Positions 15,001-18,000 of a stretch of DNA of 64,000 bases are shown here, one piece after another. The DNA lies in assembly GCF_032191835.1 (NCBI RefSeq), contig NC_083243.1, positions 143,220,001-143,284,000 on the forward strand. The letters run 5' to 3'. Position numbers: made by a program. The stretch is from Heteronotia binoei (lineage: Eukaryota). How positions within the stretch are numbered: the first letter of the stretch is position 1; the number at the start of each line of letters is the position of its first letter.

Positions 15001-18000
15001 TTATACCATTTATTAATAACCTGTTTAAAAAACAACAGCACTGAGTAAACACTTGAGTGCATTGAGTGTACCAGATAAACATTTTAAATGCTCATAACAT
15101 TGACATGGGTTTGAATATCATTCACCACCACCAGGGGTTATTTTGTAGCAAAATAGGTGGTGGAGCTCATCCAGAGATTGTTATGCAGCTACACATACTA
15201 TTCAATGGACAAGGAGGCGGATCTCTCAGAAGGAGGAGGAGGAACTCTCAGAAAGGTTCAGGAGCTGTGCTCCTGTGAGCTCCCACTGAATCTGAGGCCT
15301 GATCACCACTATTGTCAAAGTCACTTTCCAATAAATTTGTGCACAACTTTCAGAATTATGGTGCATAATACCACTCACAACAAGATATATTTGTTGAGGT
15401 AGAACTGTAGTCTATAAATGGCAAAATAAATGGCTTCAGTACTGGGAGATCAGAAATCCTACCCTGCAAGGGCCATCTTGTGAAAAGGCAACTAGATCCT
15501 GGACAAGAAATAATATAGCAATTGTGAACATTACACAAAAAAGTTGTATCATACTGGATATTTTATTTATTATAGATCTATTGATGATCTATGCAGTTCT
15601 AATAGCTTGAAAAATAAATGTAAGCAAAGCACTGGGGAGACATTTAAAATGTATCAGAACTATTAGCAGCAGCACCCTCAATATAAAATGTACTTGGTTG
15701 AAACCTGATGTAACTGTTGGCAGTCTAGCTATGGTACATAGCATTGTTTAAAGATTCAAATGAGGAAAGTCATTCAGCATCCTTTTTGGCAAAGGAAAAT
15801 GCGTCATCAGGCTTTCCACAAGGGATTCCTATTAAGAACTGTAAAGATGCCATTTCCTTTCATTATTTGACCATGTTTTCACTTATTTCAAACTACATAA
15901 GGTATATATACATCCTCTTAAAAATAAGGGATCACTTTTGCAATCCAGAGCTCTCCTCCTACATTTGCTATAATTAGAGATGTAAAATTTCTGGAATTTA
16001 AAGCTATGGGAAAAAATTGGAACTTTTTTGTTTATGGGGTTTTTTTTCTGGGAGAAAATGGAAAATTGGAATATACGTAGCAATTTTTCTTGTCATATGT
16101 AAATACAGGGGTTGTTTTGTAAAAAATAGGTGGTGGAGCTCATTAGCATAACTCATTAGCATATGCCAGCCAAAAGCAACCCAGCCAAAAGCAAGAAGAG
16201 AGAGCCCTGGGCAAGTGAGACCTGCTTGGGCTGGCCTCGCTTGCCTGGGACTCTTCTGGGCTGCCCTCCGCCACAGTCAAAAGGCCAGCAAGTAGGGTTG
16301 CAAAGTCCAGCTCAACAAATATCTGGGGACTTTTGGGGTGGAGCCAGGAGACTTCTGTGATGTCATTTTCTGTGATGTCACTTCCAGGTCAAAGATCAAG
16401 TGATGTCACTTCCACTCATTCGATGATGTCACTTCCAGCACACTCCACTAAAACCCCACATCTTCCTTTGACATCACTTTCTGGGCACTCTCCCAAACCT
16501 GCCTTTTCCTCTGAAGAAACTTCTTCCCACCCCTAAACTTCAAACATACTGTTGTATATAACTTCCCACCCCCACCTTTTCCCCATTTTACATTACCTCT
16601 AGGCCAGGGGTGGTCAAAATTGCTTAATGCTAAGAATCACATAGAATAAACATCAGCTGTTTGAGAGCCACAAGACATGAACATCAGCTGTTTGAAACAG
16701 GCACGTAGGCAAATAGATGGGGGCAGGGCTTGAATTTGGTAGGAGCTCACAGGAGCACAGCACCTGAACCTCCAGCCAGGGTCTGTATGCAGTGGGCAGT
16801 TCTCTCCCCACTGCACACAGATTCTGGGGCACACACAAATGAGATATGCTATTGAGCTCCCACACCTTCTTTTCTACAAAATGACCCCTGGATGGGGGAG
16901 GAGGGAGGGAGAGGTGGGAAGAAAGCAACTTTAACTTTAAATGCATTCTCCAAGCTGCCAGCTGGCTTGGAAAAATGATTTAGAGAGAGAAATGCCTTCT
17001 CCAAGCTGGCCAATGGGGCAGCAGTGGGGGCTTCGGGAGCCACACAGTGGGTGTTTTCGCACTCACCTTCAGCCGGCGCCGCGACCCTCTTGACGACGGA
17101 GGATCTGTGCTGATTTCCCACACGAAGCGCTGGAGCAACCAGAAGAGCCGCCAATTTCCGGCGCGAAGCCCGCTCAAGCGTTTTCCTGCTTCTTGGCGAT
17201 TTACGTTTGAGCGGGCTTCGCGCCGGAAATTGGCGGCTCTTCTGGTTGCTCCAGCGCTTCGTGTGGGAAATCAGCACAGATCCTCCGTCGTCAAGAGGGT
17301 CGCGGCGCCGGCTGAAGGTGAGTGCGAAAACACCCAGTATGTGTGAAAGAGCCACATGTGACTCCTGAGCCTCAGTTTGGCCACCCTTGCTCTAGACTTT
17401 TAGGCCTCCTGCCTGTGCAAAAATAACAAAAGAAATTGCATAAAGCATCAAGGATGCTGTAGAATCTTACTGATGGGGAGAGTTATAGACAATATAGCAA
17501 AACATATTTACTTGTACCAAAATAAATAACCTAACCAAAGAACTCTGGATTGGTTTGTTTTTAAAGAAGGTCAAATTTCAGCAGAAAACAAAGCAGGCCA
17601 AAAGAAGAGAATTTGACTTAAGCAGCAATAGGGAACTCCAGCAGATACATTTCACTCAGCACACATACCAAGCATAATTCATAGCTTCAAAACAGACCAA
17701 AAAAAACCCTCACCACCACAAAAATGCAGTGTTAATTTGAAAATTATACTGTCATCAGATTGTGCTTTAACAATAAAAAATAATGCCAACAGAATACTTT
17801 CTGCATATACTCCACAACTAATTTAAGAAGAAGAAGATATATTTGCAATAAAAAAGGCCAACGCCATGCTGGGAATTATTAGGAAGGGAATTGAAAACAA
17901 ATCAGCCAGTATCATAATGCCCCTGTATAAATCGATGGTGCGGTCTCATTTGGAGTACTGTGTGCAGTTCTGGTCGCCGCACCTCAAAAAGGATATTATG

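What the first reader, a model, noticed from the sequence alone, without database searches (positions are those of the whole stretch)
17049..17335. Very young, almost fully palindromic 287-bp MITE family (two copies)
Copy 1 has 129-bp perfect arms and copy 2 (30568-30854) differs at one base I could find. Both are CpG-rich with no visible CpG decay and have different 3-bp TSDs (AGT, TAT). A 3-bp TSD with GGG termini fits PIF/Harbinger. Two near-identical copies in 14 kb suggest a recent or ongoing burst and an active autonomous partner elsewhere.
Basis: partly seen in the sequence, partly recalled or inferred. Interest (0 to 1): 0.65.

Follow-up and report, generated by a model that had tools for sequence, protein, structure and literature searches.

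The report
Young palindromic MITE pair in gecko LYVE1
Two almost identical 287-base hairpin-shaped mobile DNA elements sit in two introns of a gecko's LYVE1 gene; they are recent transposon insertions of an ordinary kind, but which transposase moves them and how many copies the genome holds could not be checked.

Summary
Copies at 17049-17335 and 30568-30854 are each 287 bp and differ at one base. Each has 129-bp arms (perfect in copy 1) around a 29-bp centre. Each keeps 31 CpGs (o/e 1.18 against 0.235 for the window) and is flanked by AGT/AGT and TAT/TAT. Two uninterrupted paralogues of the older repeat that hosts copy 1 show a single 3-base site where copy 1 has AGT-element-AGT. This confirms the ends and the insertion.

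It is a non-coding, non-autonomous cut-and-paste element (a MITE). The window comes from a gekkonid gecko: the best named LYVE1 match is Heteronotia binoei. The copies lie in LYVE1 introns 3 and 5.

Recent insertion is supported. PIF/Harbinger is only the leading candidate. A 3-bp duplication and GGG...CCC ends fit it, but neither duplication is the usual TTA/TAA. No transposase or Myb gene is in the window, and no repeat library was available.

A genome-wide burst is untested, because no eukaryotic genome collection was open. A local hop within the gene explains two copies 13.5 kb apart equally well.

This is an ordinary kind of element. It would be modestly interesting if a Harbinger-type transposon proves active in a land-living amniote.

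The parts
17049..17335 (+). MITE copy 1, 287 bp. Left arm 17049-17177, asymmetric centre 17178-17206, right arm 17207-17335. The arms are perfectly complementary.
17046..17048 (.). Left target-site duplication of copy 1 (AGT)
   Evidence: Empty paralogues have one A-A-T at this place.
17336..17338 (.). Right target-site duplication of copy 1 (AGT)
30568..30854 (+). MITE copy 2, 287 bp, same orientation of the centre as copy 1. It carries one derived change at 30680 (T where copy 1 has G).
30565..30567 (.). Left target-site duplication of copy 2 (TAT)
30855..30857 (.). Right target-site duplication of copy 2 (TAT)
17113..17169 (+). Pair of 16-nt subterminal direct repeats (ATTTCC-4 nt-CGAAGC) at 17113-17128 and 17154-17169, 41 bp apart. 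They are mirrored in the right arm at 17215-17230 and 17256-17271, and repeated in copy 2. They are candidate binding sites for the mobilising protein (inference).
   Evidence: 8 of 8 matches in the window lie inside the two copies, against 0.00 expected.
16604..17396 (+). Older host repeat with inverted ends (CAGGGGTGGCCAAACTT...) into which copy 1 inserted. Other copies are at 4709-5036 (+) and 18722-19008 (-). End pieces at 30243-30325 and 31150-31225 bracket the DNA that holds copy 2.
3605..31587 (+). LYVE1 gene. Exon matches, mapped one by one, lie at 3605-3694, 11608-11787, about 14150-14280, 26939-27226, 28850-28930 and about 31400-31587. Copy 1 lies in intron 3. Copy 2 lies in intron 5, about 0.55 kb upstream of the last coding exon.

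Best explanation
The two stretches are copies of one non-autonomous cut-and-paste DNA transposon (a MITE) built as an almost complete palindrome.

Shown here:
- Each copy is a discrete insertion with exact GGG...CCC ends and a short target-site duplication. The duplication is 3 bp on the symmetric reading.
- The element encodes nothing recognisable.
- The copies are nearly identical and have kept all their CpGs in a CpG-depleted genome.
- Copy 1 interrupts an older repeat.

Inferred:
- A transposase encoded elsewhere in the genome binds the shared ends, and perhaps the two subterminal ATTTCC-N4-CGAAGC motifs in each arm.
- It excises the element and reinserts it with a 3-bp staggered cut.
- The palindrome arose when one end of a longer parent was copied in inverted orientation.
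- The copies entered LYVE1 introns 3 and 5 within roughly the last few million years. This happened either as part of a genome-wide amplification or as one local hop from one intron to the other.

The leading candidate for the superfamily is PIF/Harbinger, at about even odds. In that case both a DDE transposase and a Myb-like protein would be needed.

Transcribed within LYVE1 pre-mRNA, each copy would fold into a roughly 130-bp RNA duplex. This is a possible side effect and not a demonstrated function.
For: - Identity and palindrome.
- Exact ends and duplication: flanks AGT/AGT and TAT/TAT. In the alignment, 2 of 2 uninterrupted paralogues of the host repeat read CCACACA-AT-ATGTGTG where copy 1's locus reads CCACAC-AGT-[element]-AGT-ATGTGTG.
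- The DNA flanking the two copies is unrelated beyond the duplications, apart from distant host-repeat ends. This rules out a segmental duplication.
- No coding capacity: 0 Pfam families for the frames crossing either copy. The one fully open 95-aa frame has no relatives in three protein-space searches. The single hit is an unrelated tandem-repeat protein.
- Youth: 1 difference in 287 bp, and 0 CpG losses at 62 CpG sites while the window's CpG o/e is 0.235. Host-repeat copies are only 76-89% alike.
- Rough dating uses rates I assumed, not measured: 0.5-2.5e-9 per site per year, and ten times that at CpG. The point estimate is 0.7-3.5 My. The 95% limit from intact CpGs is about 1-5 My.
- Harbinger leaning: 3-bp duplications and terminal inverted repeats are the stated hallmarks (passages of PMC9179366; PMC2836001). 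The Myb-like protein of a zebrafish Harbinger binds a short subterminal motif (passage of PMC9710019), and this element has paired subterminal motifs. A palindromic Harbinger MITE is described in Xenopus (passage of PMC12676858). A young Harbinger expansion with short non-autonomous derivatives is known in a squamate (passages of PMC8437027).
Against: - Neither duplication (AGT, TAT) matches the TTA/TAA consensus given for Harbinger (PMC3014272; PMC2836001): 0 of 2.
- With only two copies, a 4-bp duplication (CAGT, CTAT) cannot be excluded.
- No transposase or Myb-like frame was found among the 314 frames of 60 aa or more in the window. No third copy or fragment is present either.
- Harbingers are reported as extinct in Anolis and as not seen in solely terrestrial vertebrates. 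In another gecko only 1,470 pieces were labelled PIF-Harbinger, against 308,578 unclassified class II pieces (Table 3 passage of PMC12549870).
- Youth could be overstated if the two copies exchange sequence by gene conversion, or if their CpGs are unmethylated in the germ line.
Confidence: 0.85

Rival explanations
1. It is a young MITE, but it is mobilised by a superfamily other than PIF/Harbinger. Candidates are another group with 3- or 4-bp duplications (CMC/Chapaev3; Zator or Academ by my recall) or an unclassified one.
For: - The duplications AGT and TAT do not fit TTA/TAA.
- A 4-bp reading is possible.
- Most class II DNA in another gecko is unclassified.
- Harbingers are reported as rare or extinct in land squamates.
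Against: - Chapaev3 ends begin with CAC and its duplications are TWA. This element begins GGG.
- hAT (8 bp) and Tc1/mariner (TA) do not fit. By recall, piggyBac (TTAA) does not fit either.
- GG-started ends are, by recall, typical of Tourist/PIF elements.
Confidence: 0.4
2. The copies are older than they look. Gene conversion between two copies 13.5 kb apart, repair within each palindrome, and lack of germ-line methylation have kept them identical and CpG-rich.
For: - The copies are close together and in the same orientation.
- Palindrome arms can correct each other (general knowledge).
- No methylation data were available.
Against: - The 29-bp non-palindromic centre is also identical.
- Copy 2's single change has not been corrected against its own other arm.
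- The surrounding host repeats are strongly diverged.
Confidence: 0.07
3. It is an assembly or sequencing artefact, or foreign contamination (a read folded back on itself, vector DNA or bacterial DNA).
For: Long perfect palindromes can arise from unremoved hairpin adapters in long-read data (general knowledge).
Against: - The same 287-bp structure occurs at two loci, each with its own flanking duplication.
- It lies inside otherwise continuous host sequence, including a repeat whose paralogues show the empty site.
- There is no match in 72,556 plasmid records.
- Neither of two exact probes matched the prokaryotic genome collection.
Confidence: 0.01
4. It is primarily a hairpin-RNA gene (a microRNA or siRNA precursor) or a regulatory palindrome, duplicated because it is useful to LYVE1.
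For: - It folds into a very stable RNA hairpin.
- Palindromic MITEs have given rise to microRNA genes (PMC1784062; search listing and start of abstract only).
- Both copies are intronic in one gene.
Against: - Rfam gave 0 matches at gathering score across the window.
- The 7 permissive matches around copy 1 are all far below threshold and fit any long hairpin, for example mir-552 at 32.8 bits against the 100 needed.
- Flanking duplications show arrival by transposition.
- No expression data were available.
Confidence: 0.03

Closest known systems
Tourist-like / PIF-Harbinger MITEs (such as rice mPing; Xenopus Harbinger-N12A_XT)
   Same: - It is short, non-coding and bounded by inverted ends.
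- It has a 3-bp target-site duplication.
- It would be moved in trans.
- The Xenopus family is 342 bp and described as palindromic inside (passage of PMC12676858).
- GG-started ends are shared with mPing/PIF by my recall.
   Different: - The duplications here are AGT and TAT, not the usual TAA/TTA.
- The palindrome covers 258 of 287 bp and does not stop at 14-50-bp ends.
- No sequence comparison with any catalogued family was possible.
Harbinger-Snek and its short non-autonomous derivatives in sea kraits (PMC8437027)
   Same: It is a very recent DNA-transposon activity in a squamate. Its protein-less short variants keep the parent's ends and duplications.
   Different: - That family is in marine snakes and was acquired horizontally.
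- Here the host is a land gecko.
- The parent, copy number and origin are unknown.
- Its terminal sequences, probably in supplements that I could not open, were not compared.
Chapaev3 non-autonomous families of Anolis (PMC3014272)
   Same: It is a squamate non-autonomous element of about 320-390 bp with a 3-bp duplication.
   Different: Chapaev3 ends start CAC, its duplications are TWA, and its copies are at least 12% diverged and extinct. This element starts GGG and its copies are 99.65% identical.
Made1-type palindromic MITEs that became microRNA genes (PMC1784062)
   Same: It is a nearly perfect palindrome that would fold into a long RNA hairpin when transcribed.
   Different: Made1 is, by recall, a mariner-type element with TA duplications, and it is ancient. 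No evidence of processing exists here.

Membership tests
MITE (non-autonomous cut-and-paste element) | Short length and no coding capacity | tested here: met
   The element is 287 bp. The frames crossing it have no Pfam family. The open 95-aa frame has no relatives.
MITE (non-autonomous cut-and-paste element) | Terminal inverted repeats and a flanking target-site duplication at exact ends | tested here: met
   2 of 2 copies have matching flanks, and 2 of 2 paralogous empty sites carry the site once.
MITE (non-autonomous cut-and-paste element) | Many homogeneous copies in the genome | tested here: inconclusive
   The window holds 2 copies and no fragments. No genome of this animal or any other eukaryotic collection was open.
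PIF/Harbinger | 3-bp target-site duplication | tested here: met
   AGT and TAT. A 4-bp reading is not excluded with only two copies.
PIF/Harbinger | Usual duplication sequence TTA/TAA and an extended target preference | tested here: not met
   0 of 2 duplications are TTA/TAA. Copy 1's site is partly palindromic and copy 2's is not. Two sites are too few to give a consensus.
PIF/Harbinger | First 11 terminal bases align with a catalogued member with at most 1 mismatch (Repbase rule for non-autonomous elements, PMC4455052) | not testable with these tools
   The rule was read. No Repbase or Dfam library was available.
PIF/Harbinger | An autonomous partner with the same ends that encodes a DDE transposase and a Myb-like protein | not testable with these tools
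   None is in the window: 0 of 314 frames of 60 aa or more. The rest of the genome was not available.
CMC / Chapaev3 | Ends beginning CAC, and TWA duplication | tested here: not met
   The ends begin GGG and the duplications are AGT and TAT.
hAT, Tc1/mariner, piggyBac | 8-bp, TA or TTAA duplication respectively | tested here: not met
   The family features come (hAT, Tc1/mariner) and from recall (piggyBac).
Known RNA families (microRNA precursors and others) | A match at Rfam gathering score | tested here: not met
   There were 0 matches in the window. All 7 permissive matches around copy 1 fall below threshold.

The most novel reading that the evidence does not exclude
The pair is the footprint of a DNA transposon that is active now, or was within the last million years or so, in a land-living gecko. 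The transposon would be either a Harbinger lineage, a superfamily described as extinct in Anolis and unreported in solely terrestrial vertebrates and so perhaps a horizontal arrival, or an unclassified superfamily with a 3-bp duplication and no TWA preference. It would move by local hops inside genes. Because of the palindrome, each copy presents an acceptor-like ...CACCTTCAG and a consensus donor AAG|GTGAGT in either orientation. Intronic copies could therefore be trapped as exons or feed double-stranded RNA into silencing pathways.
Probability: 0.2. Interest if true: 0.6.

Novelty: new member of a known kind. Interest (0 to 1): 0.35.

Why it matters
Active cut-and-paste transposons are rare in amniotes. 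Each one found is a source of insertion polymorphism, a marker for population and phylogenetic work, and a possible genetic tool.

If this family's parent is a Harbinger, it would extend recent Harbinger activity from marine snakes to a terrestrial lizard and raise the question of horizontal transfer.

For the local gene, two strongly hairpin-forming, CpG-dense inserts carrying splice-like signals now sit in LYVE1 introns. One is about 0.55 kb from the last coding exon, and they could affect splicing or methylation there.

As it stands this is a well-documented but ordinary young MITE.

Tried and rejected
- **Protein-space search for further copies.** I searched with the element's open 95-aa frame. 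One search (proteins of 52-167 aa) found none. One search (168-2000 aa) found none. One search (1.84 billion representatives) gave one hit, which one search showed to be an unrelated tandem-repeat protein. These collections hold predicted proteins and not non-coding animal DNA, so the blanks say nothing about genome copy number.
- **Prokaryotic and plasmid checks.** Exact probes of 24 and 27 bases found 0 matches in the prokaryotic genome collection. blastn against 72,556 plasmid records found none. These only argue against contamination.
- **Literature search for the terminal 12-mer.** It appeared in 3 papers, all unrelated by title, which I took to be chance matches; none was opened.
- **Literature search for a gecko MITE or Harbinger description**. 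None turned up in the listings.
- **Rfam.** Nothing at gathering score. The permissive run gave only generic hairpin matches.
- **Translating 15 kb in one frame for a PDB search**. The call returned an error because of stop codons. I dropped that route and mapped LYVE1 exons with a named gecko protein instead.
- **Sinzelle et al. 2008 (PMC2290759)** is not held. My memory that the zebrafish Harbinger prefers a palindromic target that is not TWA stays unverified and is not used as evidence.
- **One literature search failed on a slash in a term**. I re-ran it with other terms.
- **Atlas look-ups of two unexplained frames near 59-61 kb** were unavailable. PDB searches of two such frames found nothing.
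- **Autonomous partner among other elements in the window.** I rejected the hAT fragment at about 24 kb and the other palindromes (39002-39862 and others). Their ends differ, and the terminal 19-mer occurs only at the four MITE ends.
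Full report
**Observation**

Window 17049-17335 and 30568-30854 are each 287 bp and differ at one position (element position 113: G at 17161, T at 30680). Against its own reverse complement, copy 1 mismatches only within positions 130-158. It therefore consists of two perfectly complementary 129-bp arms around a 29-bp asymmetric centre. Copy 2 adds one broken pair (113/175), which shows that the single change arose in copy 2. Both copies carry the centre in the same orientation.

Each copy has 31 CpGs, a CpG observed/expected ratio of 1.18-1.19 and GC 0.60. The window as a whole has 0.235 and 0.41. The one difference is a G-to-T change outside a CpG.

None of this is chance:
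- blastn gives E = 1e-149 and 5e-148 for the two copies, and nothing else in the window is better than E = 7.5.
- The terminal 19-mer with up to three mismatches occurs only at the four ends. The expectation is 0.02, and 0 of 100 shuffles reached four.
- The strand folds into one hairpin of -200 kcal/mol as DNA and -308 kcal/mol as RNA, about 40 standard deviations beyond 200 shuffles.

**Ends and duplication**

The flanks read AGT|GGGTG...CACCC|AGT and TAT|GGGTG...CACCC|TAT.

Copy 1 sits inside an older repeat of about 330 bp with inverted ends (CAGGGGTGGCCAAACTT...). That repeat has two uninterrupted paralogues in the window, at 4709-5036 and 18722-19008. In the alignment, both paralogues read CCACACA-AT-ATGTGTG where copy 1's locus reads CCACAC-AGT-[287 bp]-AGT-ATGTGTG. 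The site is single in 2 of 2 empty paralogues and doubled around the insert. This confirms an insertion, its exact ends and the duplication.

Copy 2 lies between a 5' piece (30243-30325) and a 3' piece (31150-31225) of another member of the same host family. The DNA immediately around copy 2 is unrelated to the host-family sequence at copy 1's site, so the two insertion sites are different. I found no empty paralogue for copy 2.

One caveat applies. In both copies the base before the left duplication is C, the same as the element's last base. A 4-bp duplication (CAGT, CTAT) with ends GGGTG...CACC cannot be ruled out from two copies. The 3-bp reading is preferred because it keeps the ends symmetric.

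**Inside the element**

Each arm carries two 16-nt direct repeats 41 bp apart, ATTTCC-CACA-CGAAGC and ATTTCC-GGCG-CGAAGC. A degenerate pattern for them matches 8 times in the window, all inside the two copies, with none expected. Copy 2's single change lies in one of them. By analogy with the subterminal motif bound by the Myb-like protein of a zebrafish Harbinger (passage of PMC9710019), they are candidate protein-binding sites. This is inference.

One frame is open across the whole element (95 aa). It has no Pfam family and no relatives in protein collections. The single hit is an unrelated tandem-repeat protein.

The ends also look like splice signals. There is a pyrimidine-rich ...CACCTTCAG at element positions 18-24 and a consensus donor AAG|GTGAGT at position 268. 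Because of the palindrome, these signals are presented in either orientation. The hairpin would pair these two signals with each other, so whether they are ever used is open.

**Surroundings and host**

I scanned all 314 stop-to-stop frames of 60 aa or more against Pfam: 27, 150 and 137. The only hits were:
- four reverse-transcriptase fragments (8029-8220 +, 34956-35507 -, 46544-46795 +, 56802-57074 -)
- one hAT dimerisation domain (24004-24315 -)
- one weak LAP2alpha match below cut-off
- one extracellular link domain (11602-11820 +)

No DDE transposase of any cut-and-paste superfamily other than the hAT remnant appeared, and no Myb/SANT domain.

The link-domain frame matches PDB chains named lymphatic vessel endothelial hyaluronic acid receptor 1 (E = 1e-12). 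By my count of the printed alignment, 31 of 58 aligned residues are identical. Among named proteins the best match is LYVE1 of the gecko Heteronotia binoei (97% over the aligned part). Next come Paroedura picta (85%), Euleptes europaea (80%), Sphaerodactylus townsendi (78%) and Eublepharis macularius (73%).

The window therefore comes from a gekkonid gecko near Heteronotia. It is not human, which also agrees with the absence of any 7SL-type match.

Using the H. binoei protein in tblastn, I mapped the exons one at a time. They lie at 3605-3694, 11608-11787, about 14150-14280, 26939-27226, 28850-28930 and about 31400-31587 on the plus strand, with 78-100% identity per hit.

Copy 1 lies in intron 3. 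Copy 2 lies in intron 5, about 0.55 kb upstream of the last coding exon.

**What it is**

The pair is a non-coding, non-autonomous cut-and-paste transposon (a MITE) of nearly complete palindromic build. Exact ends, flanking duplications, an empty paralogous site, unrelated flanks and lack of coding capacity together leave little room for anything else.

An assembly artefact or contamination is very unlikely. The same structure occurs at two loci, each with its own duplication. Plasmid and prokaryotic collections hold nothing like it.

A dedicated hairpin-RNA gene is not supported. Rfam gives nothing at gathering score, and the permissive run gives only sub-threshold matches that any long hairpin would give.

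**Age**

The copies look young:
- There is 1 difference in 287 bp.
- No CpG has been lost at 62 CpG sites in a genome that has lost most of its CpGs.
- Copy 1 is nested in a repeat family whose members are only 76-89% alike.

I dated the pair with substitution rates that I assumed and did not measure: 0.5-2.5e-9 per site per year, and ten times that at methylated CpGs. The single difference gives 0.7-3.5 My. The intact CpGs give a 95% upper limit of about 1-5 My.

These figures would be too young if the two copies exchange sequence by gene conversion or if their CpGs are unmethylated. Against conversion, the non-palindromic centre is identical too, and copy 2's change has not been corrected against its own other arm.

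**Burst or local hop?**

I asked how likely a second copy in the same 64-kb window is if copies are scattered at random in a genome of 1.5-2.5 Gb. The chance is 0.03-0.04 with 1,000 copies and 0.23-0.35 with 10,000. One gecko's figures imply a genome of about 2.1 Gb (Table 3 passage of PMC12549870).

So either the family has on the order of ten thousand or more copies, or the pair reflects local reinsertion. By general knowledge, local reinsertion is common for cut-and-paste elements. The window cannot decide between these readings, and the way windows were picked for follow-up may bias the picture.

No eukaryotic genome collection was available.

**Superfamily**

These points favour PIF/Harbinger:
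- Harbingers generally make 3-bp duplications and have terminal inverted repeats (PMC9179366; PMC2836001).
- Palindromic Harbinger MITEs exist in Xenopus (PMC12676858).
- A young Harbinger with short protein-less derivatives has expanded in sea kraits (PMC8437027).
- GG-started ends are typical of Tourist/PIF elements by my recall.

These points count against it:
- The usual duplication is TTA/TAA, and neither AGT nor TAT fits.
- Harbingers are reported as extinct in Anolis, with only domesticated genes left.
- Harbingers are reported as not found in solely terrestrial vertebrates.
- In another gecko few pieces are labelled Harbinger, while 308,578 class II pieces are unclassified.

Chapaev3, the other 3-bp group described in squamates, has CAC ends and TWA duplications, so it fits worse. 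hAT, Tc1/mariner and piggyBac are excluded by duplication length.

The curators' rule for placing a non-autonomous element is the same duplication length plus alignment of terminal bases 1-11 with at most one mismatch (PMC4455052). I could not apply it without Repbase or Dfam. I therefore call the element Harbinger-like at about even odds and do not file it as a member.

All papers cited in this report were read only as the passages returned by term searches. The exceptions are PMC1784062 (search listing and start of abstract only) and Sinzelle et al. 2008, which is not held and is cited from memory only.

The supplements of PMC8437027 and PMC12676858 may hold the terminal sequences needed for a direct comparison. 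I could not see them.

**Verdict**

The reading of a very young palindromic MITE is supported. The PIF/Harbinger label and the claim of an ongoing burst with an active partner remain untested hypotheses.

As a kind of thing it is ordinary: a new, or possibly already catalogued, member of a known class. It would gain interest if genome-wide data showed an active Harbinger-type or unclassified transposon in a terrestrial amniote.

Noticed in passing
window 3605-31587 (+): A complete-looking LYVE1 gene. Six exon matches to Heteronotia binoei LYVE1, at 78-100% identity per hit, place the window in a gekkonid gecko. The exons were mapped singly and not joined.
   Followed up: yes
window 4709-5036 (+), 16604-17396 (+, interrupted), 18722-19008 (-), 30243-30325 and 31150-31225: An older repeat family of about 330 bp with inverted ends CAGGGGTGGCCAAACTT... 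and copies 76-89% alike. It resembles a Tc1/mariner-type MITE; compare the TcMar-N15_AC end listed for Anolis in PMC3014272. Both young MITE copies lie within or between pieces of this family, at different positions.
   Followed up: partly
window 39002-39862: A large palindromic element of 861 bp, with inner arms of 297 nt at 93% complementarity and outer arms of 65 nt. Its ends differ from the MITE's. A further 53-nt-arm palindrome lies directly after it at 39858-39989.
   Followed up: no
window 51926-52232, 934-1217, 36872-37025: Three more hairpin-like inverted repeats, with arms of 70-91 nt at 83-86% complementarity. This suggests the genome is rich in foldback-type short elements of several families and ages.
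   Followed up: no
window 24004-24857 (-): A remnant of a hAT transposase. A frame at 24004-24315 matches the hAT C-terminal dimerisation domain (E = 2e-6), and adjacent open frames lie on the same strand, inside LYVE1 intron 3.
   Followed up: no
window 56000-61350 (-): A run of long minus-strand open frames (up to 285 aa) with one reverse-transcriptase fragment (56802-57074) and a CpG-rich stretch at 59.8-61.0 kb (o/e up to 1.0). It may be a young retroelement. The long frames have no Pfam or PDB match.
   Followed up: partly
window 37700-38500: A CpG island (GC up to 0.63, o/e 0.7-0.8) about 6 kb downstream of LYVE1. It may be the promoter of a neighbouring gene. The frames there have no Pfam match.
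   Followed up: no
window 4480-4644 and 34506-34687: Two runs of N (165 and 182 bases). The second adjoins a reverse-transcriptase fragment (34956-35507 -). They were left as they are.
   Followed up: no
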